From: Candidatus Nomurabacteria bacterium
Lineage (GTDB): Bacteria > Patescibacteriota > Minisyncoccia > Phycocordibacterales > UBA918
Direction of reading: 5' to 3'
Assembly (NCBI GenBank): GCA_023898585.1
Contig: CP060229.1
Coordinates: 662,587-726,586 of the forward strand
DNA: 64,000 nt
The notes under the pieces: generated by a model
What the model was told of the DNA's origin: nothing
The model's input: the letters and a program-made list of their open reading frames with translations, nothing else
Databases searched by the model: none
Shown: positions 22,801-41,624 of the stretch, piece after piece
Numbering within the stretch: position 1 is the stretch's first letter
How the letters are laid out: the number at the start of each line of letters is the position of its first letter
Translations under genes and position numbers: made by a program

Positions 22801-22819
22801 TTTTAGTCAATCATTTACC

Positions 22820-28454: not shown

Positions 28455-28526
28455 TCCGCAGTAGCTCAGTGGTAGAGCAGGTCGCTGTTAACGACTTGGT
28501 CGTAGGTTCGAATCCTACCTGCGGAG
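28455..28526 (+). tRNA. tRNA-Asn (anticodon GTT)
   Basis: Hand-folded cloverleaf: acceptor tccgcag/ctgcgga, D-arm gctc-agtggtag-agc, anticodon stem ggtcg/cgact with loop cuGUUaa, T-arm gtagg-ttcgaat-cctac, discriminator G. Confidence 0.85.
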
Positions 28527-30209
28527 CATAATAGAAAAAACAGGGTCTTTTGGCTCTGTTTTTTCATTTGAGCCTTTATCTACAACATAATTTTTAGGTT
28601 CGAACTTTGGATTTACAGCTTTTGCTCGTTTAATACCTTCAATCAGTTTCTCAATAGCAATATCGTTGTAAATCTTGAGTTCTTCGTTGTTCCAAACTAG
28701 GTTCGAACCAAGTTTTGAAAGCATCGTTCTTTTTGCTTCAACATCGTCTTCAGTAAAGACTCCAGCAATGGTGGAAGTGATGTCTGTAATCTCCATCATT
28801 CGTGCATACCAATCAACTGTTTCTTCGTCACTTACTGTTACGTCAGCATATGATTCATTGAGTCGCCTCAAGTCCTCGTTATATTCTTCCTCGGTAAATT
28901 TACCGTCTCGGTACATTGCTCGGAGTTTCGCCTTCTTTTCTTCAAACTCCTGCTTACGTGCTTCTCGGTTTCTGCTCATCGCGACCTTTTCAACTGCTTC
29001 CTGCCCCTTGAGTTCATGAATATGCTTCTTTGACCACTCAACTAGCTCTGGTGAAAATTGTAGGTTCTCAAGGGCAAAATTTGCCATATACACGTCGATG
29101 TCACTCGAAGCAATAGATTTGTATGTTTCGCCAGCTTTCTTTGCTTTGACGTTGTAGTGCCAGATGTAGGATAGATATTTTGGGTGCTCCATTTTGTCTA
29201 TCTCAACACCACAACTAGGGCAGTGGGTTTTGCTTCGGTAGGCAAACTTGTGTTTACAATCACAGATAACTTGAAACTTCACATCCTGACCAATAGTGCC
29301 TTCATCGTGGCTACTAATGAATCCAGAGTATGTGGTCTGGTGATGCTGTACTTTTGGAATATGTGCCTTTGAAAGAATCATCTTTATTTTGTTATGTTCA
29401 GCTTCTGTGATGAGTCGTGGTAGTGATTTATCCAACTCAAATCTTTCACCACCATAGAAAAAGAAACCAGCATAGATTGGGTCTTTCAAAATCTCATACA
29501 TTCGGGAAAGTACAATTAGTTCGCCACCGGTCTTCTTTCTTGGAACAGTAGTCAATTTTAGTTCCTCAACTGCGTACTTGTGCAGTTTGCCTGCTGAATA
29601 TGTGCCAGTGAGAAACTTCTTTAGAAGTATCTCAATCAGTGGAAGTCTTACTTGGTCAACCAACCATTTACGATTTCCTTTTTCTTCACTTTTATCATTA
29701 AGGAATCCTAGCGTGGCTACACCATGGGGTACTCCCATTCGTGCTTTTTTGAATTGTCCTCGTTTTACGTCCCTACTCAAGTTTTTTGAATATTGCTTTG
29801 AAGCTCCAAAATGGTATGACAAAATTCCAGCGTCAGAATTTTCGTCATAAACTTCGGTCGGAGTTATTACAACCAACTTTCCCGCACCTAGGAGGTCAAT
29901 TAAAATACCACCCTCGGTCATATTTCTAGCAAGACGATTTATATGCCAGCATACAATAGCGTTTATTTCCCCTTTAAATATTTTTTGCATCATTTCATTA
30001 AATTGTGGACGCAAACCAGCTTCTTTAGCTGATTTTGCATCTTGAAATTTTATGAAAGGTGTTTTGAGTTTGTAATACTCTGCAATATTGTTACATTCAT
30101 CTTCTTGTGAAGACAAAGAAAGCATCTGCCTATCTTCCCCTTCAGTAGATTTGCGATGATAATTTGCAGGTTTAAGTTTTGTAAAATCTAGTGTTTTTTC
30201 CATAAACAA
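28515..30209 (-). CDS. Large serine recombinase (resolvase/invertase catalytic domain, recombinase domain and zinc-ribbon region)
   Basis: N-terminal YHRKSTEGEDRQ...LSLSSQ (catalytic Ser region), later ...GILIDLLGAGKLVVI, a Cys cluster CDCKHKF...CPSCG and a coiled-coil C-terminus. The 3' end overlaps the last 12 nt of tRNA-Asn. Confidence 0.8.
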   Translation of the reverse strand: MFMEKTLDFTKLKPANYHRKSTEGEDRQMLSLSSQEDECNNIAEYYKLKTPFIKFQDAKSAKEAGLRPQFNEMMQKIFKGEINAIVCWHINRLARNMTEGGILIDLLGAGKLVVITPTEVYDENSDAGILSYHFGASKQYSKNLSRDVKRGQFKKARMGVPHGVATLGFLNDKSEEKGNRKWLVDQVRLPLIEILLKKFLTGTYSAGKLHKYAVEELKLTTVPRKKTGGELIVLSRMYEILKDPIYAGFFFYGGERFELDKSLPRLITEAEHNKIKMILSKAHIPKVQHHQTTYSGFISSHDEGTIGQDVKFQVICDCKHKFAYRSKTHCPSCGVEIDKMEHPKYLSYIWHYNVKAKKAGETYKSIASSDIDVYMANFALENLQFSPELVEWSKKHIHELKGQEAVEKVAMSRNREARKQEFEEKKAKLRAMYRDGKFTEEEYNEDLRRLNESYADVTVSDEETVDWYARMMEITDITSTIAGVFTEDDVEAKRTMLSKLGSNLVWNNEELKIYNDIAIEKLIEGIKRAKAVNPKFEPKNYVVDKGSNEKTEPKDPVFSIMLRR

Positions 30210-30238
30210 AAATGAGGAAACGAGATGACTTTTAGTTG

Positions 30239-30319
30239 CTACACCAAAGGATACTCATTTCCTCGTTTTTATTAACAAAAAACTTTCTATGAAGTCTTTT
30301 GTGAATTCCTTTGGTGTAG
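30239..30319. repeat. Inverted repeat pair (14 bp, gctacaccaaagga / tcctttggtgtagc) just upstream of the recombinase start
   Basis: 30239-30251 pairs with 30307-30319, separated by ~55 nt. Confidence 0.5.
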
Positions 30320-30615
30320 CTTAAGTATTTTATCAATACTCATATTATTCCACTAGCCCCGCTTTACCTTTTGAACTGTAAAGGCTTTTGAGGTATTTGA
30401 ACTAGTCAAAAACTTTTATGAAGTAACTACTGGATACGCGACTATGTGACCTTGAACACATAATCCATATCGGAGTGATTACGGTACAGATTCAATGGCT
30501 GGGTGGAGCGGTAAACCATTTGCCCAGCTTTCGCATCTACACCTTAATTCACCCTTATTATTTGAGAGGAGCTTCTTTGTCTCTCTGCCCCTAAAAGAGT
30601 TTCGTAATTACGTTG

Positions 30616-30807
30616 TTATATATATTTCTCAATATTGTCGGAAACAGTTTCTTTTTTCATAGATAGTAGTAGCCCACTCATCAATAGGTGACCAATTTTC
30701 TCGAGTTCATCTTCTGAAATTGAGTTTACAAAATCAGTCCCGATAGTGATTTCGAGAGTAGAGCGAAGCTCGTTCAAAGCTTTATTACTGATTCTAAATT
30801 GAGTCAC
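30616..30807 (-). CDS. Hypothetical small protein
   Basis: 63 aa, island ORFan. Confidence 0.3.
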   Translation of the reverse strand: MTQFRISNKALNELRSTLEITIGTDFVNSISEDELEKIGHLLMSGLLLSMKKETVSDNIEKYI

Positions 30808-31081
30808 AAGAGTGTGCTTTTTCTGAAGCGTAGAAAAAGAAAAAGACGACCTAATGTCGCCTTATTCACTCGAGGTTTTGTTCAAACACCAAGAATAAAT
30901 AAGACATTATGTTTGCAGTATTCTGCAAACGAAATTCATTTATTTATTCAACGTGTTCGAGCAAAACTGAACTGTTTTGTCTTTTGGAGCACGAGCTCCG
31001 CCAATTTCTTGACTTGCTCATTATAGCATTTACCAAAACAGAAACCAAGAAAATATACAAAAAATGGAGTATAATCAAAAC

Positions 31082-31230
31082 GCTGACAGTAACTATAAGT
31101 ATAAGTTTCCGAAAGGAAGCTTTGTCGTTAATCGTGTGCGGAATACGCACTCTCGCTTCTTGAGGAAACACGATTAGCGGCGAAAGCTTCTAGTTGCTGT
31201 CAGCACCTCTCGCGGGGGTGCGTTTTCTTT
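31082..31230 (+). ncRNA. Candidate structured leader/small RNA with intrinsic terminator
   Basis: Perfect TATAAT at 31070-31075; an 8-bp closing stem gctgacag(31082-89)/ctgtcagc(31197-204); an internal GNRA hairpin aagtttcc-GAAA-ggaagctt; a gtgcg-gaata-cgcac hairpin; and a terminator gcacc-(9 nt)-ggtgc plus gttttcttt. It ends 18 nt before the ATG at 31248. Confidence 0.3.
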
Positions 31231-31247
31231 ATATATAACTAAACTAT

Positions 31248-31481
31248 ATGGTTGACCAAATACTAATAGCAGGATTGAGTGGACTGTTGATTATCGCTAT
31301 AGTCCACGGACTTGCGGTGTTTTCTAAAATTATCAAGATGAAAAATCAATCAAGTATTACTTTGATTGAATCAGTGAAGCAATCTAAACTTGGCGCTCTG
31401 TCTTGGGTAACACTCACTATCTTTGTGTTGTTTTTAGCCATGATTATCTTTGGAATCGGGGCTTCTGCTATTCTTGGATAA
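31248..31481 (+). CDS. Small 2-TM membrane protein
   Basis: 77 aa, two hydrophobic helices. Confidence 0.45.
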   Translation: MVDQILIAGLSGLLIIAIVHGLAVFSKIIKMKNQSSITLIESVKQSKLGALSWVTLTIFVLFLAMIIFGIGASAILG

Positions 31482-31503
31482 CCAAGCTTAACCAAGGTTA
31501 ACT

Positions 31504-31737
31504 ATGGCTAAATATGTCGACATCACTGGCCATGTGAAGTTTTTAAATACAAAAGATGGTCATGGAGCAGTCATGCCAAATGTTCTTGTCGGTGCTCACA
31601 ATCAACTTATATTTTTTACCCAAGAAAACACAGAAGATTGGGACCGTCTTAAGCGAGGAAGTATCGTCATGACAGATGTTAAATCAGAGAACGGAAAACT
31701 ATACGCAAACAACTTGTCTCTGCTTCAAATTTCCTAG
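31504..31737 (+). CDS. Degenerate cold-shock-domain (OB-fold) protein
   Basis: GHVKFLNTKDGHGAV...QLIFF...LKRGSIVMTDV...NGKLYANNLSLL aligns with CspA G.VKWFN..KGFGFI...VFVHF...L.EGQ.V.F.....KGP.A.NV, but most RNP aromatic residues are substituted. Confidence 0.45.
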   Translation: MAKYVDITGHVKFLNTKDGHGAVMPNVLVGAHNQLIFFTQENTEDWDRLKRGSIVMTDVKSENGKLYANNLSLLQIS

Positions 31738-31739
31738 AT

Positions 31740-32102
31740 TTAGCTAGTTTCTGCCAAATCACCAAGGAGTTGGCCGATTGTAATGTTTACTCCAGATTCC
31801 TTCTCTTTAGTAAGAATATTTAGAGCTGTATAAATAATACGGCGGTCTGCCGAACCTGCTGATGTTGGACGAGACGCAGACTTAATCAAAGCATCATTTA
31901 TTCGTGGCAAAACTGCACCTATTTGCTCAACAAAACCCTGTTTCAGTAGTTCTTCCCGAATCAGCTCTTTTTCAACCTCCTCGACCTTTTTACGCCTTGT
32001 ACGGTAAGTCGTTGGACGCTCTGAAACAGCAGCCTTCTGACTAGCTTTCTTGCGGATTTCTGGGTTTTGAAAGTTAAATTTTTTTACGCTCATTTCAAGC
32101 AT
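31740..32102 (-). CDS. Hypothetical basic protein
   Basis: 120 aa, Lys/Arg-rich N-terminus, divergent from the OLD nuclease gene. Confidence 0.4.
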   Translation of the reverse strand: MLEMSVKKFNFQNPEIRKKASQKAAVSERPTTYRTRRKKVEEVEKELIREELLKQGFVEQIGAVLPRINDALIKSASRPTSAGSADRRIIYTALNILTKEKESGVNITIGQLLGDLAETS

Positions 32103-32115
32103 TATATCATCAACA

Positions 32116-32146
32116 TTGTGCCAGTTTTCCTAGAAAATGGTAAAAT
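32116..32146 (+). promoter_or_regulatory. Candidate promoter giving a leaderless or very short-leader transcript for the OLD-family gene
   Basis: TTGTGC-19 nt-TGgTAAAAT, with the ATG 7 nt downstream of the -10. Confidence 0.3.
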
Positions 32147-32153
32147 CACGCTA

Positions 32154-34043
32154 ATGATTTTTAAAGAACTAAAATTGTCTTCAAGAGGTCTTGAAAATTA
32201 CGTTATTTTAGGTAGTAGTGATGAAAAAATTTTAAAAAATCTCTCAAAAATAAACATATTTGTAGGACAAAATAATTCAGGTAAGAGTAGATTTTTACGT
32301 GGACTATCAATGTTTGAAGAATATGAGTTTATTCCAAAAGATTTTGATTATGATGGCGCAACTCAATTTGCCAACGAAGCAGTTAAACGCATTGACGAGA
32401 TACTAAAAAATCATAATTCAAACACTCTTGGCGATATTCAAAGCAAGTTTTTATCCGCTGTCCAGCCGAACAGTTTTTTTAAGCCGAAAAATAATAGTTT
32501 ACATCGACTAGATGAGCTATTTAGCTATATTTCTAGAACAACTCTAAACAATGTCCCTCATAACGGTCAAAATATGGAACGTTGTGTAGAAACTTTAAAA
32601 ACTTATGTAACAAGTCAAAGGGAGACTTTGAATAAATATCTTGAAGAATTAAAAGATAAAGATTCTGGAAAGTATGTGAGGATGTATGTTCCTGTTATGC
32701 GAGGTTTACGCCCCCCGAGAGTAGGTAATCATAATGATGATGACTATTTTAATAGAACGAACTCTGATTATTATGGGGGTAGTGTAGGCTCTGGTGATTT
32801 AACAAACAATCAAATTTTTTCAGGCCTGTCTTTGTATGAGAATATAAGAAAACGGTTGCTTGGTTCGCAGGAAGAAAGAAAGTTAGTTAGAGATTTCGAG
32901 ATTTTCTTGAGTGAAAATTTCTTTGATGGAGAACCTATTACTCTCATCCCAGCTCATGATGCTGATGTGTTGACAGTGAGTATCGGAAAAATTGAAAACA
33001 AGAGAATTTATGAGCTGGGTGACGGTATACAGAGTCTTATAATCCTCAACTATCCAATTTTTGAATTCGTGAGAAGCAGGCCAAAAGATTCACTGTTGGT
33101 TTTTATTGAAGAGCCAGAGCTTTATGTGCATCCAGGTTTACAAAGAAAGCTGTTGGAACAATGGCAAAAATCGGGGTATGAGAAGGTGCAATTTTTTGTT
33201 ACAACTCATTCGAATCACTTCCTTGACATGACGATAGATTTTAGTGACATGTCTATTTTTAAGATTTCTTTACATGGATATAACGAAAGTTATAAAGAAA
33301 ATGAGTTTGTGGTCGAAAATTTAAGCTCGGGTGATAAGAGTTTGCTTGAATCTCTAGGTGTTAGGAATTCTTCAGTATTCCTCTCAAATGCAACGATATG
33401 GGTGGAAGGCATCTCTGACCGAATTTATTTTAGAAAGTTTCTAGAACTATATCTAAAAAAGAAAGGCGAGTCTTTAACATATTTAGAAGATACACACTAT
33501 TCCTTTGTTGAATACGGTGGCGGCAATCTACCGCACTGGTCATTTGACGAGGATGGCTCTGATGATGACTCCATAGATGTTAGCAGGATAGTTTCAAATA
33601 TCTATCTTGTCGCAGATAGGGATGACACAGAAACTAATACATCATCTGCAAAAGCGAAAAGACTTGCTCATCTAAAAAAGATTTTAGGTCCAAAGAATAG
33701 TACCGTCTTACCGGTTAGAGAAACCGAAAATCTCATAACTTTTGAATTACTGTCTAAAGTTATTGCAAGCCGAGGAGATTCACTTAAAGAAAAATTAAAG
33801 CTTGATACAGTCCGAGAAAAATTAAAGAGTGAGTACCTTGGACACTATATAGAGTCCAAGTTACTAGTTGGTGACCCAAAGAAGCGGTATTGCTCAAGTA
33901 CATCAAAAACAATTAAAAATAAAGCTAGTTTTGCCAAAGAAGTATGCGAGCAACTTAAATCATTTGATGAATTGAGTGACGGAGCAAAAAAGTTGACTAG
34001 GTCATTGTATAGGTTCATTGTTAAGACAAATACTGATGAGTGA
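32154..34043 (+). CDS. OLD-family nuclease: N-terminal ABC-type ATPase plus C-terminal Toprim domain
   Basis: Walker A GQNNSGKS, a long insertion, then Walker B/D-loop LLVFIEEPELYVHPGLQRKL and H-loop FFVTTHSNH. Toprim motifs ATIWVEGISDRIYF (Glu), YLVADRDDTE (DxD) and LPVRETENL follow. The start is trimmed to the ATG at 32154. Confidence 0.75.
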   Translation: MIFKELKLSSRGLENYVILGSSDEKILKNLSKINIFVGQNNSGKSRFLRGLSMFEEYEFIPKDFDYDGATQFANEAVKRIDEILKNHNSNTLGDIQSKFLSAVQPNSFFKPKNNSLHRLDELFSYISRTTLNNVPHNGQNMERCVETLKTYVTSQRETLNKYLEELKDKDSGKYVRMYVPVMRGLRPPRVGNHNDDDYFNRTNSDYYGGSVGSGDLTNNQIFSGLSLYENIRKRLLGSQEERKLVRDFEIFLSENFFDGEPITLIPAHDADVLTVSIGKIENKRIYELGDGIQSLIILNYPIFEFVRSRPKDSLLVFIEEPELYVHPGLQRKLLEQWQKSGYEKVQFFVTTHSNHFLDMTIDFSDMSIFKISLHGYNESYKENEFVVENLSSGDKSLLESLGVRNSSVFLSNATIWVEGISDRIYFRKFLELYLKKKGESLTYLEDTHYSFVEYGGGNLPHWSFDEDGSDDDSIDVSRIVSNIYLVADRDDTETNTSSAKAKRLAHLKKILGPKNSTVLPVRETENLITFELLSKVIASRGDSLKEKLKLDTVREKLKSEYLGHYIESKLLVGDPKKRYCSSTSKTIKNKASFAKEVCEQLKSFDELSDGAKKLTRSLYRFIVKTNTDE

Positions 34044-34335
34044 TATTTTTACACAAGTTGTTGGAATGATTATCGGGACCGTGCTGCTCGGGTGGTTTGG
34101 GTTGGGTGGCGGTCATAGGACTGTAACAGTTGTTTCTAGAACAAGACAGTCAAAGAAATGGAAACTGGCAATTATTTTTGGAATTCTAATGATTCTGGGA
34201 GGTGCTGTTATATTCAGTAATAATTATCCACTTGGAGGTTTTAATAACCCTTATAGTGGGCTAGGTTTTTCGCTGGCCTTCCTTGGAGTAGTCACTTACC
34301 TAGTTGGAAAGTTTGGAGTTTGGTGGAATAGATAA
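34018..34335 (+). CDS. Small 3-TM membrane protein, translationally coupled to the OLD-family gene
   Basis: 105 aa; 26-nt overlap with the OLD ORF end; Gly-rich TM helices. Confidence 0.45.
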   Translation: MLRQILMSDIFTQVVGMIIGTVLLGWFGLGGGHRTVTVVSRTRQSKKWKLAIIFGILMILGGAVIFSNNYPLGGFNNPYSGLGFSLAFLGVVTYLVGKFGVWWNR

Positions 34336-34336
34336 T

Positions 34337-35149
34337 TTACTGTTTAGTTGATGACTTTGTTGAGGATGTTTTTGAGCGGTCTTTTACACATTCCGTTTGT
34401 TTGGTATTCCATTTATAGCCGTCTTTGCATGTACACTGGTCTTCTCCATACGGAGCTGATTTTGAACCAAATTCAGCTTTGCAAATACGCTCCAGAGTCA
34501 CACAAGAATTCTTTAGCACAAAGAAACCATCGTTACAGTACAGGGTCGAACCAACAATCTTTCCATTATTCGGTTTTTCACATTTATCACCCTTTTCGAT
34601 GTAGCCAGAATCACAATATAAAGTGTCGCCAATCACATACCCGTTCTTTGGTTGCTTCACACACTTATCATTTTTCTCATAATATCCAGAGTCACAGTAG
34701 GTAACTCCGTATGACTTCCAGCCACCTTTAATTTCCTTGTAAATGTAATCTGAACTTAAGCTAGAATACCCTGAATAACTTGGCACATACGATGAGTACG
34801 ATGATTTATATGAAGGTGTATATGATGGCGTATAGCTAGGAGTATATGAAGGGAATGTGTATGAGGAGCGATATGTTGGAAGCGAAAATCCTGATGAACC
34901 ACTATTGTTGTAGTAGTTATTGAGATAGGTGCTTGCATTACCACCTGCTGTAACTCCAGTGTACGGATTGGTGTTTCCTGGGAAGCTGAAATTGTTGTAT
35001 GGATTACCGTCTGGGGTAGAACGCCAATAGCCATTTACGTACGTCCCGTTACTTCGGTAGTATCCGTTGACGTATTGGTCGGCTAAAACGGTGCCGAAGC
35101 TACCAAAAATGACCCCAAATGAGAGCAGAATAGTGATAATGTATTTCAT
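34337..35149 (-). CDS. Secreted Tyr/Ser/Asn-rich protein with C-terminal cysteine-repeat modules
   Basis: Signal peptide; YVNGYYRS/YVNGYWRS; (SYTP)3SYKSSYSSYVPSY; and three YCDSGYxEKxDKC-type repeats. Confidence 0.55.
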   Translation of the reverse strand: MKYIITILLSFGVIFGSFGTVLADQYVNGYYRSNGTYVNGYWRSTPDGNPYNNFSFPGNTNPYTGVTAGGNASTYLNNYYNNSGSSGFSLPTYRSSYTFPSYTPSYTPSYTPSYKSSYSSYVPSYSGYSSLSSDYIYKEIKGGWKSYGVTYCDSGYYEKNDKCVKQPKNGYVIGDTLYCDSGYIEKGDKCEKPNNGKIVGSTLYCNDGFFVLKNSCVTLERICKAEFGSKSAPYGEDQCTCKDGYKWNTKQTECVKDRSKTSSTKSSTKQ

Positions 35150-35280
35150 ATATAAAAATCATATACCTCTTTAAAGAAAAAGCTAGGGACCTGTACAAAC
35201 AGTCATTCTTATTATATTCTGCGTCCAGCTTCTGGGCTTGAGCCCTATAAGTTCAACACATCATCAAGAAGGAGTACGAA

Positions 35281-35913
35281 ATGAACGATATCGCCAAGAT
35301 TTCTGTTCCATCCTATGGCGGAACTGGGTCGGCCAAAGACGGCCTGCATGTTGATGTCAGGGGCCTGACATCTGATGAGATGGAACGCCTACGTGCGTCC
35401 ATGCTCGGAGGTCATCACTGGGTTCGACGCGGCGATGATGGTCGTTTGCAGCATGTTCCTTCATACGAAGAACTGCCTGGTCCTGTGACTGACGACCAAA
35501 TGCTCCCGTTCTGGCGTCAGCCGACTGATGGCGAAACCCGTCAAGCAGACATGTTCGGTTTCGACGAAAGCACTGAAGCGGCCTTGAAGCATGCTAGTCC
35601 GTCCATCTACATCACCAGCTTGTGCGGCTACCACTATTCGGATGAAAATTACAAGTGTGAAGCGGCCAAGTTGACCGAATGGGGTTTCGTCTGCATGCGG
35701 TCGCCGCGCGATTCTGACAGTGGGCGGTACTGGGAAGTCTGGTACCTGTCTGGTGTTTGGGCAGTCAAGGGGCGCCTGGGCGAAGCATTGACAGACAGCA
35801 ATGCAAAGACCAACGACGAAAAATTCAAGTTCGTTCTCGAATTTCTTCGTCGTAACGCCAGCTTCGGCAGCTTGGACGTTTCCATGCAACGTATGGCAAT
35901 GGTCATGGACTGA
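35281..35913 (+). CDS. Hypothetical protein encoded in a GC-rich (~55%) insert
   Basis: AAGGAG lies 9 nt upstream. The codon usage is G/C3-rich, unlike the flanks. No recognisable domain. Confidence 0.55.
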   Translation: MNDIAKISVPSYGGTGSAKDGLHVDVRGLTSDEMERLRASMLGGHHWVRRGDDGRLQHVPSYEELPGPVTDDQMLPFWRQPTDGETRQADMFGFDESTEAALKHASPSIYITSLCGYHYSDENYKCEAAKLTEWGFVCMRSPRDSDSGRYWEVWYLSGVWAVKGRLGEALTDSNAKTNDEKFKFVLEFLRRNASFGSLDVSMQRMAMVMD

Positions 35914-36052
35914 CTCGCTCACACCCTCCGCCAAGAAAGCATCCTGCTTTCAGTAATGGCGGTGGGGTGTTTTCTTTTATCACAAGAATCCAGCGCCATT
36001 TTTACCCATAATTACTGACCGAACGTCGTCCCAAGTTCGGAGCAGAATATTT

Positions 36053-36080
36053 AGTGCGTAATTTAAATTACGCACTTTTT
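36053..36080. terminator. Bidirectional terminator: 24-bp perfect palindrome plus T-run
   Basis: agtgcgtaattt|aaattacgcact followed by ttttt. It overlaps the stop codon of the TerC-like gene. Confidence 0.5.
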
Positions 36081-37057
36081 CTATGACGCAGAGATGAATA
36101 GTAAGCGGCTAAGACAAAAGAAACACCAACGGTGCCCGTAATCAACTCCGGTACTTCTGTCAACATAGAAACCAGCATGGAAATAGCCAGACCAAAAATA
36201 GCCCAGTGTGCGCCATGCTCCAGGTATTTGAGTTTGTCTAAAGTTTTTTCCCGAACCATGAATATAGTCAAAGAACGAACAAAAAAGGCACCGATACCGA
36301 GTCCGATGGCAATAATTAATATCGAAGAGGTTAGCGCAAACGCTCCAATGACGCCATCAAGCGAAAATGAAGCATCGAGTATTTCAAGGTATAAAAATAA
36401 CGCAAGGCAGTTTGTTGTCATTTGGTTTGTTTCCACTGAAAAAGTGTTGGTCAAACCTTGCATGAATATGAATAGTATTATGCCGAAGACGCCTGCCATC
36501 ATAACGGTTGCTTTGACTTCTTGTGGCACGAGGAAAGCAATTGAAGTTATTGCCAGTAAGACAAGTACAATCTCCACTGACTCTATTCGGCCCCATTTAA
36601 TCAACCTTTTCTCTATGATGTTTATCCAGTGCAACTCCTTCTTCTTGTCTAAGAAATATTTAAGCGCAACGAGGAGAAGGAATGATGCTCCAAAACCATG
36701 GATGGCATATTTTGCTCCTTCCAGGAGTTCTCCATAATGATGCGCATCGAAAAGTGCCATCTGCATAATTAGCCAAGGTGAAGATAAAGTCACTAAGCTA
36801 ACTATTACAATAGGTAACACAAAGCGGGTGACAAAAACAGCAAGCAAAATACCCCAGGTCAAGAACCGACGTTGCCAGGTTGGAGTCATTTTTTCCAAGA
36901 CACGAGCGTTTACAACCGCGTTATCAAACGAGAGAGTGACTTCCAGTAAGACAAGCAAGACGGCAATAAAGAGCGCCTCCCACGAACCATACCAAAAGAG
37001 AGCAACTAGTCCTAAAATGGTTACCAATATGGAACCCTTAAAATGTTTGAGTAACAT
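36068..37057 (-). CDS. TerC-family integral membrane protein
   Basis: EVTLSFDNAVVNA motif, ~8 TM helices, 329 aa. Confidence 0.65.
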   Translation of the reverse strand: MLLKHFKGSILVTILGLVALFWYGSWEALFIAVLLVLLEVTLSFDNAVVNARVLEKMTPTWQRRFLTWGILLAVFVTRFVLPIVIVSLVTLSSPWLIMQMALFDAHHYGELLEGAKYAIHGFGASFLLLVALKYFLDKKKELHWINIIEKRLIKWGRIESVEIVLVLLAITSIAFLVPQEVKATVMMAGVFGIILFIFMQGLTNTFSVETNQMTTNCLALFLYLEILDASFSLDGVIGAFALTSSILIIAIGLGIGAFFVRSLTIFMVREKTLDKLKYLEHGAHWAIFGLAISMLVSMLTEVPELITGTVGVSFVLAAYYSSLRHRKSA

Positions 37058-37280
37058 GTGTGCAAAATTCTAACATGAAGTATGGTCGGTGTAATTAAGA
37101 AAAAATGGAAATGGGAGGAAATCAGGTCATAAGGAAATAGAGAGGAAATGGGGCCAAGTCACTACTAATGAAGTCTTGGCGAATGAGGTGAGTGCTGTCC
37201 AATGGGGAAGTAAGGAGGTTTTGTCTATTACGGTCTGCAATGATTGATCTTAACTCAATAAGCGGGGTATACTTCTGAAT

Positions 37281-37724
37281 ATGAAAAAATTAACCTACAC
37301 AATAAAAATCAATAAGCCGGTGGAATTTGTTTTTGGCAAAATGACAGACAAAGAAGCCTATCCAGGATGGGCTAAGGCGTGGGGTGAAGGAATGGCATAT
37401 GAGGGGGAGTGGAAAGAAGGTGGTCACATCTCATTCTTTGATACTTCAGGTCAAGGTACGAAGGTGGTGGTGGAAGAAATCGTGCCTAACGTATCAATAA
37501 AAATGAAGCATGTCGCTATGATTGAAGAAGGAAATAAGGAAGTGAAAGGGCTCGATGAAACGATGCAAAAATGGATCGGTTCGCAAGAAGACTACTTCTT
37601 CAATGCACTAAGTGGAGATGAGACCGAATTGAAGATTGTCATTGAAGCTGATGAAGCTTTTGAAGAAATGATGCAAGCCTGGCCCAAGGCATTGGAATAT
37701 TTAAAGGAAATCTGCGAAGCGTAA
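37281..37724 (+). CDS. SRPBCC (AHSA1/Bet v1-like) domain protein
   Basis: 147 aa; fold signature INKPVEFVF...W. Confidence 0.5.
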   Translation: MKKLTYTIKINKPVEFVFGKMTDKEAYPGWAKAWGEGMAYEGEWKEGGHISFFDTSGQGTKVVVEEIVPNVSIKMKHVAMIEEGNKEVKGLDETMQKWIGSQEDYFFNALSGDETELKIVIEADEAFEEMMQAWPKALEYLKEICEA

Positions 37725-37764
37725 CAAGACATATGTATATTGTTTAATAAAGACAGAGAGTTGT

Positions 37765-38307
37765 ATGAAAAAGTACGTGGCGCTACTTCGGGGTATTAAC
37801 GTTGGTGGTAACAACAAGATCGGTATGTCCGAGCTCAAACAGTGTTTCGAGTCGTTGGGCTATAACAAAGTCTCAACCTACATAAACTCCGGAAACGTCA
37901 TATTTGAATCTCCAAAAACCGAAATCACTGAATTGGCTGGTGAAATTGAGACAGCGATTAAGGAGGCTTTCTCACTTGATATTTCAGTTGTGATCCGCGA
38001 TAAAAATAACATCGAAAAAATATGTCGCAAGATACCGGCCGACTGGGTTAACAATAAAGATTATAAGACTGACGTCATGTTTTTATGGCCGAAATTCGCT
38101 AGTAGGAATACACTTGAGCAGATACGTATCAACCCGCTTGTTGATACGTTACTTTATATTGAGGGTGCGATAGTCTGGCATCTTAAAAAGGAGGATTACG
38201 GAAAAAGTAAGATGGGAGACATTATAGGTACAAGTGTCTACAAAAACATGACCGTAAGAAATATTAATACTGTCAGAAAGCTTGCTTCGTTGATGAAGGA
38301 AGGGTAG
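37765..38307 (+). CDS. DUF1697 family protein
   Basis: LLRGINVGGNNKIGMSELK...TYINSGNVIF matches the DUF1697 hallmark. Confidence 0.7.
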   Translation: MKKYVALLRGINVGGNNKIGMSELKQCFESLGYNKVSTYINSGNVIFESPKTEITELAGEIETAIKEAFSLDISVVIRDKNNIEKICRKIPADWVNNKDYKTDVMFLWPKFASRNTLEQIRINPLVDTLLYIEGAIVWHLKKEDYGKSKMGDIIGTSVYKNMTVRNINTVRKLASLMKEG

Positions 38308-38515
38308 TTTGGTTTTTTGTGCAATAAGGTAGATTTTTTGTCATTTTTGACTCATTTTATTTTTTGTGGTGAAAAAAGTTATTCGACTTACTCTCTATAC
38401 AGAGAGGTTGCGTGGTCTTAAAATTATGTGTAGCGAGGGAACTCGTCTAAAACATTTAACTTAAGATGGCAACAAAGAAAGCAAAGAAAAAATAGTCTAA
38501 TTGTACTTTTTTTCA

Positions 38516-38548
38516 CAAAAAGCACGGACCCCCGGTCCGTGCTTTTTG
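38516..38548. terminator. Bidirectional rho-independent terminator
   Basis: aaaaagcacggacc-ccc-ggtccgtgcttttt, a perfect hairpin with A and T tracts on both sides. Confidence 0.7.
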
Positions 38549-38551
38549 CAT

Positions 38552-39298
38552 CTAAATTTCTCCCTTGAGAAACCGCCTTCTTATTTTTTCGGGAAATTTT
38601 TCAATGGCATATCTTAACATGGTGCGAGGCATCTGCTTATAGTGTCTTCGCAGGAATTTCATCTCGACATCTTGATCGCGCTTACCAACTTCACGCAACA
38701 TCCAACCGACTGCTTTGTGGATCAAATCATGATCATCGTTCAATAGAACTTTTGCGGTGTTAATTGTTTCGTTAAAACGATCTCGTTGAATAAAATAAGC
38801 TGTGGCTATGATCGCAATGCGTCTTTCCCAAATGTCGTCTGAATTGGCTAAACACTGTAAGGTCTCTTCCGCGTAAGACTTTGGTGCTTCATGGAGGTAT
38901 GCTCCCACGATCTTATGAGCTGAGATATCGACCAGATCCCAATTGTTGATATGTGTTGTGTGAGACAGGTAAGCGTCATAAATTTGTTTTTTTCCTCTCT
39001 CTGTAGAGACGATAAATTGTTCAGTGAGTATGACAAGTGCACATAACCTTTCGTCGTGGATCGTTGATTTAAGGAGCAAGATTACTTCTGTTAGTGAAAG
39101 TTTACGGTGAGTACTTGCTACCTTCCTGATATCCGGCATACGCACGCCTATAAAAATGTCCCCCTCGCCGTACTGACCGGGTCCGGTTTTGAAATAACGA
39201 CTGAGTGCCGAAGCATGTTGAGAACAAGCCTTGGTTTGTAGTTCGGATTTCACTGACTCTACTGCCGATAGCGAAATGTCATTTTCATTGATCGTCAT
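38552..39298 (-). CDS. DNA alkylation repair enzyme (AlkC/AlkD HEAT-like repeat family)
   Basis: 248 aa, PF08713-like pattern (RYFKTGPGQYGEGDIFIGVRMP...). Confidence 0.7.
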   Translation of the reverse strand: MTINENDISLSAVESVKSELQTKACSQHASALSRYFKTGPGQYGEGDIFIGVRMPDIRKVASTHRKLSLTEVILLLKSTIHDERLCALVILTEQFIVSTERGKKQIYDAYLSHTTHINNWDLVDISAHKIVGAYLHEAPKSYAEETLQCLANSDDIWERRIAIIATAYFIQRDRFNETINTAKVLLNDDHDLIHKAVGWMLREVGKRDQDVEMKFLRRHYKQMPRTMLRYAIEKFPEKIRRRFLKGEI

Positions 39299-39393
39299 AT
39301 CTCAAGATTATATAATAATCAGAATGAAGGTGTTTGGTTCGTGAATCCGGTAACATCTTATGTTAAGCTATTTATGTTTGTGATAGTTTATTT

Positions 39394-39870
39394 ATGCAAA
39401 ATAAAGATGTTGATGATTTGAAAAATAATTTAACAGCGGTTAACGACTATCTTTCGGGGATGTTGCCGGAAATTCGACTTGCGGTATTTGAATTGATTAA
39501 GCCATATATTGAAAAAGGCATACCTTTCTCTCAAGAACAGAAAAGAAAAGGAAGTGCAGTTAACACTAGTGTCAGGGATTTTTTTGTTACTCACGACCCA
39601 CAAAAACCAGCCGACGCCACGCTGATTTTAGCCGCCTGGCTCTATACTCAGCGTGGCAACACAGCATTCTCATTGGATGAATTGTACAAGTTGTTTGATG
39701 AAGTCGGTTCGCCGAGGCCGAATAAAGTAAATATGACACTAAGAACCTGTTCTAGAAAAGGTAAAATATTATTTATGAGCGCCGGCCATGGTAAATTCCG
39801 CCCCAATATCAACGGCGAAAATTATTTCAAAAGCGACATGAACCTAAGGCCGAGTGCGAGGGACACATAA
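39394..39870 (+). CDS. Hypothetical protein
   Basis: 158 aa, no recognisable motif. Confidence 0.4.
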   Translation: MQNKDVDDLKNNLTAVNDYLSGMLPEIRLAVFELIKPYIEKGIPFSQEQKRKGSAVNTSVRDFFVTHDPQKPADATLILAAWLYTQRGNTAFSLDELYKLFDEVGSPRPNKVNMTLRTCSRKGKILFMSAGHGKFRPNINGENYFKSDMNLRPSARDT

Positions 39871-40050
39871 TCTTCTTTTTTCAAAAGGTTTCAAAAGACA
39901 ATTGTCGAATACTCACACTTCTTATTGTGTGGTCATACAATCTTCCGCCTGTGAATGAAGAAGTTAACAATTTTTGTCATTGGCTAAATAAAAGAATAAT
40001 AAAAATCGGCACCAAGACGATGCCGACCTATTGCGTTAATGTCTATAACT

Positions 40051-40500
40051 TTATAACGCGTAGAAATAGTCTTCAAAAACTTGTTGTAGTTTTTCTTGTA
40101 TATCTTCTCTGAAGTGTGGTTTTATGATTTGGATTTCATGACCGTTTAAACCGTAAGAAATCGCCTGGTCGTAACTAACCTCAAACCCATGTTCCTTTTT
40201 GACATCAAGCGGTGCGTGAACCAAGAGAGTTTTTCTTTCGGTGTTATTTTCGCTTACTATTAGCCAGGTGTAGGTTTGAGTTTCTTCTGTAACCGGCAGT
40301 CCGACCACGCTTCCTACGTCAATTGTTAAAAGTTGATTGTTCAAACGTTTGAGACGCAATTCCAACAACTGCTCATCAGTGTACGTAGGAAATTCTATTC
40401 GGTGTAGACCAGTTCCGTAAAAAATCAGTAGTACAAGGAAGATAATCAACAGCTTCCAAGCAAGCCCACGAAAAGATTCTTTGAAATTAATTTCGCTCAT
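40051..40500 (-). CDS. Membrane-anchored hypothetical protein
   Basis: N-terminal TM helix plus a ~120 aa extracytoplasmic domain. Confidence 0.4.
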   Translation of the reverse strand: MSEINFKESFRGLAWKLLIIFLVLLIFYGTGLHRIEFPTYTDEQLLELRLKRLNNQLLTIDVGSVVGLPVTEETQTYTWLIVSENNTERKTLLVHAPLDVKKEHGFEVSYDQAISYGLNGHEIQIIKPHFREDIQEKLQQVFEDYFYAL

Positions 40501-40597
40501 TGTTTTCTCCGGAAGGAAAATGACTAACTTTCTCTATAATACAATAATTATAGAGAAAGTCAAAAAGAAAAAACACCCCTGCATCCATACCGGGGTG

Positions 40598-41443
40598 TTA
40601 GCTTGTTTCGGAAGTTGTTTCCCTGGGGTCTACTGTCGTTGACTCAGGGAGAGTTTCCTCAGTACCTTTTTTAGTGACCCGATGATTTTTAATGGCCACA
40701 ATCGGCTTTCTCAATAGCTCGCGCTTCTGGTTGGCTACTTTGAGAATAACTCGTTTGGCTTGTCGTTTTTTAAGCAGGGCTACTCTTACTGGCCTTGATT
40801 TTCTGATATGTTCTGGTGCCTTGTTCCATAATCCTGGCAATAGTTTATTTTCAATCAATCCAGCAAACGTGCCGGAAAGGATTTTCGGACCAAGGGTTAA
40901 AAAGACAAATTTAACTCCTCGCCATAACCATTTGAAAATTGGCCAGGCCAAGAATACTGCTACTGTCCAAATCATATCCTCTTTGGTAGCTACGAACGGG
41001 AGACTGACCAGTACTAAAATTGCCGTCAAGGCAATTGCGGTAATGATTGTCTGTTGCCGTTCACTTTTGCCATTCCACCAAGTGGCTGGTCGCTCAAGAG
41101 TGTGGTGTTTAAAAGCTACCACGGCGGCCTCTTTACTGTTTAGTACAACTTGTTTTTCTTCCGCGTCTAGTAACCACCAAGCGGGTACAAACAGTAGCGC
41201 TCTAATCCAGCGCTTAGCAAATGCTCGCAACATCAGACGTGGTACAACTTCGGCTAACACCGCTCCCCAAGCAGGGATTGTCTTTGTCACAAACGACTTA
41301 AACAACGCTGGGGCTGAGACGATGTCCCAGTAATGATGAATGGTAAACGCTATTCCACCCAGTAAAAATATCAAGATGAGTATTTGTGGCTGAAGTAGCC
41401 AATTGACCACCCGCGACAGGAGGTCGACGATAACGCGTAGCAT
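40598..41443 (-). CDS. Polytopic membrane protein
   Basis: 281 aa, ~6 TM helices. Confidence 0.45.
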   Translation of the reverse strand: MLRVIVDLLSRVVNWLLQPQILILIFLLGGIAFTIHHYWDIVSAPALFKSFVTKTIPAWGAVLAEVVPRLMLRAFAKRWIRALLFVPAWWLLDAEEKQVVLNSKEAAVVAFKHHTLERPATWWNGKSERQQTIITAIALTAILVLVSLPFVATKEDMIWTVAVFLAWPIFKWLWRGVKFVFLTLGPKILSGTFAGLIENKLLPGLWNKAPEHIRKSRPVRVALLKKRQAKRVILKVANQKRELLRKPIVAIKNHRVTKKGTEETLPESTTVDPRETTSETS

Positions 41444-41624
41444 CGCAGATCCTCCCCGTAGGTTTTTAAAAAAGAACTTTTTTGATTATGGCATAAATAT
41501 CAAGACAGTGCAATAGTAGCGGTAAAGAGCTTCAAAATTTTGTCTTTGTATGTAAAAACCCTCCCAACGCAGGAAGCGAAGGGAGGGCGCCGTGTTGACT
41601 TGGTTGAAGGTTCAGGTCAGCCTG

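What the first reader, a model, noticed from the sequence alone, without database searches (positions are those of the whole stretch)
28455..35150. tRNA-Asn-integrated element with a large serine recombinase and a defence-like cargo
The recombinase ORF overlaps the 3' end of tRNA-Asn(GTT), which is the classic arrangement for an integrative element. About 6.5 kb of atypical cargo lies downstream: small ORFans, a degenerate cold-shock-domain protein, a structured RNA, an OLD-family ATPase/Toprim nuclease coupled to a small membrane protein, and a secreted cysteine-repeat protein. This is the clearest accessory region in the window. The element may be active or only recently fixed.
Basis: partly seen in the sequence, partly recalled or inferred. 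Interest (0 to 1): 0.7.

Follow-up and report, generated by a model that had tools for sequence, protein, structure and literature searches.

The report
Serine-recombinase defence island in tRNA-Asn
This is a real 7.5-kb mobile island inserted in the end of a tRNA-Asn gene of a tiny-celled (Patescibacteria) bacterium by a large serine recombinase, and both of its ends can be mapped to within a few bases; it belongs to a widespread, apparently undescribed group of such islands that carry anti-virus genes and stack up at this one tRNA.

Summary
The tRNA-Asn(GTT) at 28455-28527 and a 562-aa large serine recombinase (LSR, 28515-30203, minus strand) overlap by 13 nt.

**Ends.** I mapped both to a shared 7-nt block, CGGAGCA. 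attL carries GAGC at 28524-28527. attR carries GAGC at 36040-36043, not 35150. The island (E1) is 7,516 bp.

**Site anatomy.** The tRNA side has the T-loop motif TCGAA 13 nt from the core. The far-end arm has it 18 nt out. A 5-bp outward shift is the published signature of LSR attB versus attP half-sites.

**Family.**
- Of 80 metagenome loci with LSR relatives (31-64% identity), 26 end in tRNA-Asn in the same register.
- About 16 carry a longer tail encoded by an attP-type arm.
- Some sit in tandem arrays. A strain variant identical to the window over 13.9 kb appears to have a second island between the tRNA and E1.

**Overlapping code.** The LSR's last codons also encode, on the other strand, a covarying terminator hairpin for the tRNA.

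**Cargo.** Here it is an OLD-family ATPase without GajB. Related islands carry restriction-modification genes, GmrSD, a reverse transcriptase and Gabija-like pairs.

**Limits.** No excised or empty form of E1 was found, so it looks fixed. I rate this a new variant of a known kind.

The parts
28455..28527 (+). tRNA-Asn(GTT), the integration target. Positions 28455-28523 are host-derived (B arm). The last bases, GAGC, are shared with or supplied by the island.
   Evidence: ARAGORN; Rfam 72.9 bits; break of identity with contig L058 at 28523/28524.
28524..28527 (.). attL core GAGC. The crossover dinucleotide lies within CGGAGCA, the block shared by the inferred attB and attP.
   Evidence: Junction comparison of the window with L058. 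The same GCTC core occurs in all related loci.
28528..28565 (+). P' arm of the island. It includes a 14-bp hairpin plus T-run (28534-28565) that acts as a terminator for the tRNA. It is encoded antisense to the LSR's C-terminal codons (...NEKTEPKDPVFSIML).
   Evidence: dG -19.1 kcal/mol on the tRNA-sense strand against -9.8 on the other. In 30 family members, 93% of cells are paired and 10 of 14 pairs show compensatory changes; 0 of 500 shuffles match this. The G-U pairs are valid only on the tRNA-sense strand.
28515..30203 (-). Large serine recombinase, 562 aa in the integrated ('short') form. Predicted nucleophile S19 in the motif Y15-x-R17-x-S19. Four invariant Cys residues (C314, C316, C328, C331) form the zinc ribbon. 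A long coiled coil spans about 385-484.
   Evidence: Pfam, PHROG and NCBIfam matches; invariant columns; 55/55 relatives match Resolvase and 47/55 match Recombinase; AF2 model plus Foldseek hits to SPbeta, Bxb1, PhiC31 and LI integrases.
30616..30807 (-). 63-aa ORF upstream of the LSR on the same strand. No family match. Function unknown; a regulator or directionality factor is a guess only.
   Evidence: called as a gene in metagenome contigs.
30874..30968 (.). 95-nt near-perfect hairpin or inverted repeat in the divergent intergenic region. Role unknown.
   Evidence: Inverted repeat I1; z=-6.7 on plus and -6.0 on minus; no Rfam match.
31248..31737 (+). Two 77-aa ORFs. The second (31504-31737) has a very weak cold-shock-domain resemblance.
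   Evidence: CspE model 19.9 bits against a cut-off of 120.
31740..32102 (-). 120-aa ORF with no family match.
32154..34043 (+). OLD-family ABC-type ATPase with a probable Toprim nuclease domain (629 aa). This is the defence-like cargo.
   Evidence: AAA_15 at 1e-19 and AAA_21 at 3e-17; OLD Toprim at 0.005; GajA, AriA, Old and NsnB PADLOC models at about 1e-19; retron Eco8 effector at 1e-10; PDB 6p74, an OLD-family endonuclease, at 2.4e-5.
34036..34335 (+). 99-aa protein whose start overlaps the end of the OLD gene by 8 nt, suggesting translational coupling.
   Evidence: gene call in contigs; sub-threshold hits to membrane families TctB and SfLAP. No transmembrane prediction was run.
34337..35149 (-). 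270-aa Tyr/Ser-rich, Cys-repeat protein with a hydrophobic N-terminus, read by eye as a signal peptide.
   Evidence: DUF4215 at 0.007; phrog_29674 at 9e-9 on residues 13-66.
35281..35913 (+). 210-aa ORF with GC 0.54 and no family match.
   Evidence: It lies between the cargo and the P arm.
36014..36043 (-). attR: an attP-type (P) arm, GCTCCGAACTTGGGACGACGTTCGGTCAGT, with the core GCTC at 36040-36043. On excision it would extend the LSR to 579 aa (...SIML-RTWDDVRSVIMGKNGAGFL*).
   Evidence: PWM built from 14 P arms scores 19.8 bits here; the next best site in the window scores 11.4, and the maximum over 20 shuffles is 16.3. The class-II consensus is unique in the window, with 0 of 100 shuffles matching. 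The same motif sits 7.9-11.6 kb upstream of the LSR end in other elements and matches the consensus exactly in L077, L082, L102, L121 and L126. Sequence read.
36044..36080 (+). B' arm: the original sequence downstream of tRNA-Asn, including its native terminator hairpin at 36053-36076.
   Evidence: Terminator scan; dG -13.9 kcal/mol, z=-4.2. Relatives have similar hairpins directly after tRNA-Asn.

Best explanation
Window 28524-36043 is a 7,516-bp integrative island, E1. It entered the 3' end of the host tRNA-Asn(GTT) gene by attP x attB recombination, catalysed by its own large serine recombinase (LSR).

**Site layout**
- The attP core lies inside the last codons of the LSR gene (...S-I-M-L = ...ATGCTC).
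- Integration therefore does three things. It replaces the LSR's native tail of about 19 aa with two codons and a stop read from the tRNA antisense strand. It restores the last bases of the tRNA. It gives the tRNA a new terminator hairpin, encoded on the opposite strand of the LSR's C-terminal codons.
- The displaced native terminator now follows attR at 36044-36080.

**Recognition**
The enzyme appears to recognise the tRNA T-loop sequence (A/T)TCGAAC as its zinc-ribbon-domain motif. That motif sits 13 nt from the GCTC core on the tRNA arm and 17-18 nt out on the island's P arm.

**Cargo**
Cargo differs between family members and is rich in defence-type genes. Here it is a solitary OLD-family ATPase/nuclease with a small downstream partner.

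**Arrays**
Related islands stack in tandem at the same tRNA. The inner LSR then regains a long tail, encoded by its neighbour's P arm.

**Shown versus inferred**
- Shown: the anatomy, the family-wide register, the 5-bp motif shift, hairpin covariation, arrays in other genomes, and strain polymorphism at the junction.
- Inferred: that E1 can still excise; that the strain variant L058 is a tandem second element; how arrays form; how the island moves between cells; and that the OLD protein defends against phage.
For: **LSR identity**
- Pfam, PHROG and fold evidence.

**attL**
- Contig L058 is 100% identical to window 42433..28524, then diverges exactly inside the tRNA acceptor strand. There the LSR reads on for 30 more codons.

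**Family register**
- 26 of 80 metagenome loci have tRNA-Asn antisense to the LSR stop, with stop = tRNA start + 12.
- 6 more share a break in the tRNA-Asn anticodon loop; a group I intron was confirmed there in two of them (L107, L133).
- About 16 loci have long tails.
- LSRs only 26-28% identical end ...WLRG* in the same register.

**5-bp shift**
- TCGAA is at +13 in 29 of 29 tRNA arms and at +17/18 in 23 of 23 P arms.
- This matches the published rule that the ZD motif sits 5 bp nearer the centre in attB than in attP (PMC3783163).

**attR**
- A single outlier P arm lies at 36014-36043, on the correct strand.
- It is nearly identical to the P arms found 7.9-11.6 kb from the LSR end in other elements.
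- A terminator hairpin follows it, as after empty tRNA-Asn genes in relatives.

**Terminator in the P' arm**
- Covariation and strand-specific G-U pairs.

**Arrays**
- L093 and L156 run tRNA-Asn | short LSR | about 6.5 kb | long-form LSR.
- L089 has three P arms.

**Foreignness**
- Lower GC.
- Cargo is absent from relatives and not shared between family members.

**Defence cargo elsewhere**
- GmrSD plus C5 methylase plus EcoRII-C; a reverse transcriptase; a LexA-methylase fusion; methylase plus HATPase; and a GajA/GajB-like pair.
Against: - No empty attB and no circular attP junction of E1 was seen.
- All 15 same-species contigs that reach the right end carry E1.
- Raw reads could not be searched.
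- No recombination directionality factor was identified.
- The right-hand arms (P', B') show no clear ZD motif, so the site is less symmetric than textbook LSR sites.
- Tandem arrays are not explained by the canonical rule that only attP x attB recombine.
- The second element, E2, in the strain variant is known only from 1.58 kb. Its link to the tRNA is inferred by analogy, and could not extend it.
- The exact crossover dinucleotide is not resolved within CGGAGCA.
- The window LSR itself scores below Pfam's cut-off for the Recombinase domain (17 bits against 21.1).
- The defence role of the OLD protein is untested, and its Toprim match is sub-threshold.
Confidence: 0.85

Rival explanations
1. 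E1 is a fixed, no-longer-mobile remnant. It was integrated by the LSR in the past, and it is now simply part of the species' chromosome. This rivals the 'still active' part of the explanation, not the origin.
For: - Every same-species contig that spans the right end (15 contigs from several samples) carries E1 with the same neighbours.
- Every Fpg contig that extends past the tRNA shows the same LSR.
- No family member was found in IMG/VR, and no attP junction was found there.
- No directionality factor was recognised.
Against: - The LSR ORF is intact and keeps all family-invariant residues.
- Both att arms match the family consensus.
- The junction at the tRNA is polymorphic between strains that are otherwise 100% identical over 13.9 kb.
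- Several contigs break exactly at the tRNA.
Confidence: 0.4
2. The LSR is a chromosomal inversion or rearrangement switch. The two junction forms (window against L058) would then be the two orientations of a large segment lying between the tRNA-Asn site and a distant site.
For: - L058 is identical to the window for 13.9 kb on the LSR side but has a different sequence beyond the core. That sequence is absent from the whole 64-kb window.
- The window holds core genes (Map, ArgRS, MltG) to the right. L058 therefore cannot be a simple excised circle of a larger element.
Against: - E1's own P arm and B' terminator sit 7.5 kb away in direct orientation and are intact in L058 too.
- Tandem arrays with exactly this junction type (long-form LSR next to another element that ends at tRNA-Asn) occur in L093, L156 and L089.
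- The L058 flank encodes accessory-type genes that are widely scattered across phyla.
Confidence: 0.05
3. The region is a degraded prophage or phage satellite rather than a simple recombinase-plus-cargo island.
For: - LSRs are common phage integrases, and phrog_95 matches.
- One cargo protein has a PHROG hit of unknown function.
Against: - No capsid, tail, terminase, replication or lysis genes were found by Pfam, PHROG or NCBIfam.
- Elements of the family are only 7.5-11.6 kb and share no gene but the LSR.
- There are no relatives in 2.9 million viral contigs.
Confidence: 0.05
4. The recombinase gene merely happens to lie next to the tRNA, and the overlap is chance.
For: There is no direct repeat of the tRNA 3' end anywhere in the window.
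Against: - The same 12-nt overlap register occurs in 26 of 80 distant loci and in a second LSR subfamily.
- The motif is shifted between the B and P arms.
- The hairpin covaries.
Confidence: 0.01

Closest known systems
Phage-type large serine integrases (SPbeta SprA/YokA, Bxb1, PhiC31, A118/LI)
   Same: - Same domain order: catalytic domain, alphaE helix, recombinase domain, zinc ribbon with a coiled-coil insert.
- Full-length fold matches.
- A short core with no long direct repeats.
- attB-type and attP-type arms differ by a 5-bp shift of the outer motif, as described for LI integrase (PMC3783163).
   Different: - The target is the 3' end of a tRNA gene. The mycobacteriophage literature read here describes tRNA targets as the common organisation for tyrosine integrases (PMC8092301). 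From my own knowledge, serine integrases usually target protein-coding genes.
- attP lies inside the integrase ORF, so the protein's C-terminus changes with integration state.
- The right-hand arms lack an obvious outer motif.
- The element is not a phage.
- Sequence identity to solved integrases is only 12-16%.
SCCmec-type cassettes moved by CcrA/B/C large serine recombinases
   Same: - Small non-phage, non-conjugative cassettes with variable accessory cargo.
- Insertion at the 3' end of one conserved housekeeping gene.
- Tandem composite arrays at that site (from my own knowledge).
- Weak NCBIfam matches to CcrB, CcrA and CcrC.
   Different: - The target is tRNA-Asn, not rlmH/orfX.
- There is a single recombinase, at the very end of the element and overlapping the att core.
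- The Ccr matches are far below the family cut-offs (32 bits against 900).
- The hosts are Patescibacteria.
[quoted passage not shown]
   Same: - Integration at the 3' end of a tRNA with restoration of the gene.
- The integrase lies next to the tRNA.
- Defence cargo, and tandem arrays at tRNA hot spots.
   Different: - A different, unrelated enzyme family and chemistry.
- No long identical core or direct repeat: only 7 nt are shared.
phiRSM-type filamentous phages that integrate into a tRNA gene through a small resolvase-like serine recombinase
   Same: A serine recombinase that uses a tRNA gene as attB. The paper is cited in PMC7192596. That the target is a tRNA-Ser gene is from my own knowledge.
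   Different: - That enzyme is a small serine recombinase without the recombinase, zinc-ribbon and coiled-coil domains.
- The element is an inovirus.
Class 1 OLD nucleases (P2 Old, Thermus scotoductus OLD) and Gabija GajA
   Same: The cargo protein has the ABC-type ATPase and probably the Toprim domain.
   Different: - There is no GajB helicase next to it. A small 99-aa protein is coupled instead.
- All model matches are partial.
- A true GajA+GajB-like pair occurs in a related locus, L138.

Membership tests
Large serine recombinase / serine integrase | N-terminal resolvase-type catalytic domain with the Y-x-R-x-S nucleophile motif | tested here: met
   PF00239 at E=7e-17 on residues 17-159. 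Y15, R17 and S19 are invariant in 55 relatives. 55/55 relatives match PF00239.
Large serine recombinase / serine integrase | Recombinase domain (PF07508) after the alphaE helix | tested here: met
   The window protein scores only 17 bits against a 21.1 cut-off. However, 47/55 relatives match at E<=1e-3, and the AF2 model aligns through this domain to 4kis and 9dxh.
Large serine recombinase / serine integrase | Zinc ribbon domain with four Cys and an inserted coiled coil | tested here: met
   C314, C316, C328 and C331 are invariant. The model has a beta-rich segment at 296-351, helices at 385-432 and 438-484, and a return to strands at 501-512. Full-length Foldseek alignments to SPbeta, Bxb1 and PhiC31 integrases have E from 2e-18 to 5e-13. 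Pfam Zn_ribbon_recom is not matched by this subfamily, but the array partners in L093 and L156 do match it.
Large serine recombinase / serine integrase | attP and attB half-sites that share an outer (ZD) motif shifted by 5 bp, around a short core | tested here: met
   TCGAA lies at +13 in 29/29 tRNA arms and at +17/18 in 23/23 P arms. The rule is from PMC3783163. This was met for the left arms only; no clear motif was found in the P' and B' arms.
Large serine recombinase / serine integrase | Catalyses attP x attB integration; excision needs a directionality factor | not testable with these tools
   This needs biochemical or read-level evidence. No directionality factor could be recognised by sequence.
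Integrative genomic island | Two hybrid att sites that bound foreign DNA absent from relatives | tested here: met
   attL at 28524-27 and attR at 36040-43. Relatives lack the content. GC is lower.
Integrative genomic island | Presence/absence polymorphism or an excised form within the species | tested here: not met
   All same-species contigs carry E1. The only polymorphism concerns an adjacent second element. Reads could not be searched.
Gabija (GajA+GajB) | An OLD-type GajA next to a UvrD-like helicase GajB | tested here: not met
   GajA models match partially. The neighbours are a 99-aa small protein and a 120-aa ORF, and there is no helicase.
OLD family nuclease | ABC-type ATPase domain followed by a Toprim domain | tested here: inconclusive
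   The ATPase is clear: AAA_15 at 1e-19 and AAA_21 at 3e-17. Toprim PF20469 scores only 17.8 bits against a 23.2 cut-off. GajA models extend over residues 344-538. PDB 6p74 matches at 2.4e-5.
SCC-type cassette (Ccr recombinases) | Ccr-family recombinase and insertion at rlmH | tested here: not met
   CcrB scores 32 bits against a 900 cut-off, and the target is tRNA-Asn. The resemblance is functional only.

The most novel reading that the evidence does not exclude
These recombinases may recognise only one informative arm, the tRNA T-loop or its +5 copy in the island. The other arm would then be generic.

**Consequences**
- The hybrid attL would still work as an attB for newcomers, and attR as an attP.
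- That would make a serine-integrase system that builds and reshuffles tandem stacks of defence cassettes at a single tRNA, without the usual strict attP x attB directionality.
- The recombinase's own C-terminal tail (2 aa, about 19 aa or about 30 aa) would report its position in the stack and might tune its activity.

**Support and limits**
- It is consistent with the arrays.
- By eye, the few B' arms I could collect share no motif; this was not quantified.
- The conserved P' arm is consistent too.
- Nothing here tests it directly.
Probability: 0.25. Interest if true: 0.8.

Novelty: new variant of a known kind. Interest (0 to 1): 0.6.

Why it matters
**Mobile elements in an uncultured group.** The work gives base-level attachment sites for a whole clade of serine integrases in Patescibacteria. 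Mobile elements in this group are poorly charted, and my full-text searches found no paper linking serine integrases with it.

**A different route to tRNA targeting.** A tRNA 3' end is the classic target of tyrosine integrases. Here an LSR uses it by reading the universal T-loop sequence as its outer recognition motif. That offers a natural test bed for the 5-bp-shift model of attP/attB discrimination. It also offers a set of integrases with a target present in many bacteria, which could be useful for genome engineering.

**Dense overlapping code.** One 45-nt stretch simultaneously encodes the recombinase C-terminus, half of attP and, on the other strand, a terminator for the tRNA.

**An open mechanistic question.** The tandem arrays of small defence cassettes resemble SCC composites. 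How a directional serine integrase stacks elements is not explained by the canonical rules.

Tried and rejected
**1. Direct-repeat search for a displaced tRNA 3' end.** Nothing was found in the window. This was expected once the enzyme proved to be an LSR.

**2. Exact-protein look-ups with the longest ORFs.** These failed until the ATG starts were used (then 12, 13).

**3. L058 as the excised circle or an inversion partner.**
- I first took the long-form junction in L058 for one of these.
- It cannot be an excised circle. L058 keeps E1's own attR, and its 1.58-kb flank is absent from the 64-kb window, which includes Map, ArgRS and MltG.
- Inversion is kept only as a 0.05 rival, because tandem arrays in L093, L156 and L089 explain the junction.

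**4. First rigid patterns for the P arm.** These found nothing. A weight matrix and then the class-II consensus found one site.

**5. A weak P-arm look-alike at 35224-35243.** I noticed it by eye. It is not supported by the matrix and was dropped.

**6. Viral collection.** There are no LSR relatives and no attP junction.

**7. Extending the second element E2.**
- A homology search with E2's 307-aa protein returned only a 1-kb contig for the same cluster.

**8. Shared cargo between family members.** None was found, apart from an OLD-like gene in L130/L138.

**9. Rfam on the island.** Only the tRNA matched.

**10. Literature.** No paper was found on serine integrases in Patescibacteria or on this tRNA-Asn family. 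Absence from the held library does not prove novelty.

Full report
**1. What is in the sequence**

ARAGORN and Rfam both find one tRNA in the window, tRNA-Asn(GTT), at 28455-28527 on the plus strand.

On the minus strand an ORF runs from the ATG at 30203 to a TAG at 28515-28517. Its last three sense codons and its stop lie inside the tRNA's T arm and acceptor strand.

The 562-aa product is a large serine recombinase (LSR):
- It matches Resolvase PF00239 at E=7e-17 and PHROG integrase family phrog_95 at 1.6e-40.
- Its best solved relative by sequence is the SPbeta integrase.
- In an alignment of 55 relatives the Y15-x-R17-x-S19 motif and four cysteines (C314, C316, C328, C331) are invariant.
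- All 55 relatives match Resolvase and 47 match the Recombinase domain.
- An AlphaFold model (mean pLDDT 77) shows a catalytic domain, a helical domain, a beta-rich zinc-ribbon region and a long coiled coil.
- The model aligns over its full length to the SPbeta, Bxb1, PhiC31 and LI integrases, with E from 2e-18 to 6e-9.

Downstream cargo:
- Small ORFs with no family match.
- A 629-aa OLD-family ATPase. AAA_15 and AAA_21 match strongly, the Toprim match is sub-threshold, and there are partial GajA, AriA and Old matches.
- A 99-aa protein overlapping the end of the OLD gene by 8 nt. Its only matches are sub-threshold hits to membrane families.
- A 270-aa Cys-repeat protein with a hydrophobic N-terminus.
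- A GC-rich 210-aa ORF.

GC is 0.392 across the island, against 0.435 and 0.428 in the flanks.

**2. Host and relatives**

Exact-protein look-ups place the region in activated-sludge-type metagenomes and in the NCBI MAG GCA_020428745.1. A source annotation names the recombinase as from a Candidatus Kaiserbacteria bacterium.

A genome scan with the neighbouring Fpg protein returned 38 Patescibacteria MAGs with 56-76% identical Fpg.
- They keep the left-hand synteny: V-type ATPase operon, UDG, Fpg, and in several cases tRNA-Asn.
- None has any gene of window 28.5-64 kb on the other side of the tRNA.

These relatives are too distant to give the right boundary.

**3. The left junction**

Contig L058 (Logan SRR26387399) is 100% identical to window 42433..28524. 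It then diverges exactly at 28523/28524, inside the tRNA acceptor strand.
- In L058 the recombinase ORF does not stop. It reads on for 30 codons (...SIML-AWRDAFRSYDW...).
- It runs into 1.58 kb that is not in the window.
- The recombination core is therefore the GAGC at the end of the tRNA, which is GCTC in the Leu codon of ...ATG CTC.

**4. Family-wide pattern**

The LSR has hundreds of relatives (379 hits at E<=1e-5). The named ones come from Patescibacteria lineages: Kaiserbacteria, Nomurabacteria, Paceibacterota and Parcubacteria. Their C-termini fall into three classes:
- short forms that end ...FSTML plus two residues;
- forms that read on into ...QDSNLRPI, the antisense of a tRNA T arm;
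- long forms with a conserved tail.

In 80 metagenome loci of relatives at 31-64% identity:
- 26 have tRNA-Asn(GTT) antisense to the LSR stop in exactly the window's register, with stop = tRNA start + 12.
- 6 more share a break in the tRNA-Asn anticodon loop. A group I intron was confirmed there by Rfam in two of them, L107 and L133.
- One reads into tRNA-Gln and a few read into another tRNA.
- About 16 have long tails.

A second LSR subfamily, only 26-28% identical, also ends ...WLRG* in the same register on tRNA-Asn.

**5. attB-type and attP-type arms**

After the GCTC core, all 29 tRNA-joined arms have (A/T)TCGAA at +13. This is the tRNA T-loop. All 23 long-tail or far-end arms have a TCGAA-like motif at +17/18.

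A 5-bp outward shift of the zinc-ribbon-domain motif in attP relative to attB is the rule derived from the LI integrase-DNA structure (PMC3783163). The long tails are therefore attP-type (P) arms, and the tRNA is the attB-type (B) arm.

**6. The right junction**

A weight matrix built from 14 P arms gives one outlier in the window: 36014-36043 on the LSR strand, GCTCCGAACTTGGGACGACGTTCGGTCAGT.
- It scores 19.8 bits. The next best site scores 11.4, and the maximum over 20 shuffles is 16.3.
- The derived consensus GCTCCGNNCNTGGGANNANGTTCG is unique in the window and occurs in 0 of 100 shuffles.
- P arms of this type lie 7.9-11.6 kb upstream of the LSR end in other elements. L077, L082, L102, L121 and L126 match the consensus exactly.
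- Directly after its core comes a hairpin plus T-run (36053-76). This resembles the terminators that follow tRNA-Asn in relatives without an island.

The island E1 is therefore 28524-36043 and 7,516 bp long.

The reconstructed attB and attP share CGGAGCA. The crossover dinucleotide is somewhere within that block. Excision would restore a 579-aa LSR ending ...ML-RTWDDVRSVIMGKNGAGFL. This resembles the tail of L098.

**7. Overlapping code**

The last 45 nt of the LSR gene are highly conserved. On the tRNA-sense strand they form a 14-bp hairpin followed by a T-run.
- Folding energy is -19.1 kcal/mol on the tRNA-sense strand, against -9.8 on the LSR-sense strand.
- Across 30 family members, 93% of cells pair and 10 of 14 pairs show compensatory changes. 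No shuffle out of 500 and no slid register comes close.
- Many of the pairs are G-U, which is valid only on the tRNA-sense strand.

The island thus supplies a replacement terminator for the tRNA. The same bases also encode the recombinase C-terminus and the P' arm.

**8. Arrays and the strain variant**

- In L093 and L156 a long-form LSR lies about 8 kb from a tRNA-Asn. Between them sits another element, whose own short-form LSR ends in the tRNA.
- L089 has three P arms in series.
- L058 keeps E1's own attR, so it is not an excised circle.

The simplest reading is that L058-type strains carry a second element, E2, between tRNA-Asn and E1. This is an inference. E2 could not be extended.

Several contigs also break exactly at the tRNA, as expected at a branching junction.

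**9. Activity**

- I found no empty site or circle for E1.
- All 15 contigs that reach the right end carry E1.
- No relative or attP junction is present in IMG/VR.
- The LSR and both arms are intact.
- Whether E1 still moves is open. I put 'fixed remnant' at 0.4.

**10. Cargo**

- No cargo gene is shared across the family, apart from an OLD-like gene in L130/L138.
- Defence-type genes in related elements include GmrSD plus a C5 methylase plus EcoRII-C, a reverse transcriptase, a LexA-S24-methylase fusion with DUF4238, and a methylase plus a HATPase.
- A GajA-like/UvrD-like pair sits next to a long-form LSR in L138.
- The window's OLD protein lacks a GajB partner, so it is not Gabija. It is closest to solitary (class 1) OLD proteins, and its role is untested.

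**11. Comparison and novelty**

- The enzyme is a bona fide large serine integrase.
- The element behaves like a tRNA island of the tyrosine-integrase kind. In its small size, variable cargo and tandem stacking it also resembles an SCC cassette.
- A serine recombinase using a tRNA target has a precedent in phiRSM, which uses a small serine recombinase (reference in PMC7192596).
- I found no description of this family or of serine integrases in Patescibacteria in the held library. That does not prove novelty.
- I rate it a new variant of a known kind.

The least conventional reading not excluded is that only the tRNA/P arm is informative. Hybrid sites would then remain substrates, which would explain the arrays. 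I give this a probability of about 0.25.

Noticed in passing
L107 11711-11988; L133 1073-1349 (also L100, L103, L117, L128): In several related loci the target tRNA-Asn is broken at the same point in its anticodon loop. Rfam confirms a group I intron there in two of them: RF00028 scores 68.2 bits in L107 and 54.5 bits in L133. ARAGORN misses all of these tRNAs.
   Followed up: partly
L128 6686-6806; L103 168-291; L107 7550-7675: Three loci that carry related LSRs contain a LOOT RNA (Rfam RF03000, 77-86 bits). In L128 it lies inside the mapped element; in L103 and L107 the element ends were not mapped. The window's island has none.
   Followed up: no
window 30874-30968: A 95-nt near-perfect hairpin or inverted repeat lies in the divergent intergenic region of the island. 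It has z=-6.7 and -6.0, is equally stable on both strands, and matches no Rfam family. It could be an operator, an origin or an RNA.
   Followed up: partly
window 35281-35913: A 210-aa ORF with GC 0.54 sits inside an island whose remaining GC is 0.376. It matches no family in Pfam, PADLOC, NCBIfam or PHROGs. It was probably acquired separately.
   Followed up: partly
L138 12632-16290: A GajA-like OLD protein (662 aa) is followed by a UvrD-like helicase (562 aa). This Gabija-like pair sits directly beyond a long-form LSR on a 1.1-Mb contig.
   Followed up: partly
L151 11653-11724; L105, L110, L111: Some family members read into other tRNAs: tRNA-Gln(CTG) in L151, and a different tRNA (tail ...RRVWDSNPRGYYYP...) in the other three. 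Target switching therefore occurs within the clade.
   Followed up: no
L026 6038-6112 and 9652-9726: A relative has two full tRNA-Asn genes 3.5 kb apart, upstream of Fpg. This may be another kind of island, or a duplication at the same hot spot.
   Followed up: no
window about 16236-24888: A complete V-type ATPase operon (subunits I, K/C, E, C/AC39, F, A, B, D) lies left of the island. It is conserved in order in the Patescibacteria relatives.
   Followed up: no
L077 and L078 (LSR 600 aa): The closest JGI relatives (64% identity) end ...FSTIDVYPI* without the GCTC core or a tRNA. They still have a class-II P arm 8.8 kb upstream. This may be a decayed junction or a differently targeted one.
   Followed up: no
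L002 end; L009 start; L007, L008 and L010 starts: Several independent assemblies break inside the tRNA-Asn or inside the LSR gene. This is consistent with branching in the assembly graph caused by strain variants at this junction.
   Followed up: partly
L058 14164-15123: A 319-aa protein at the end of the putative second element has hundreds of 42-69% identical relatives. Source annotations place some in distant phyla (Chloroflexota, Omnitrophica, Deltaproteobacteria) and in archaea (Euryarchaeota). One relative carries a NucS-type domain (PF01939). It looks like a widely mobile gene of unknown function.
   Followed up: partly
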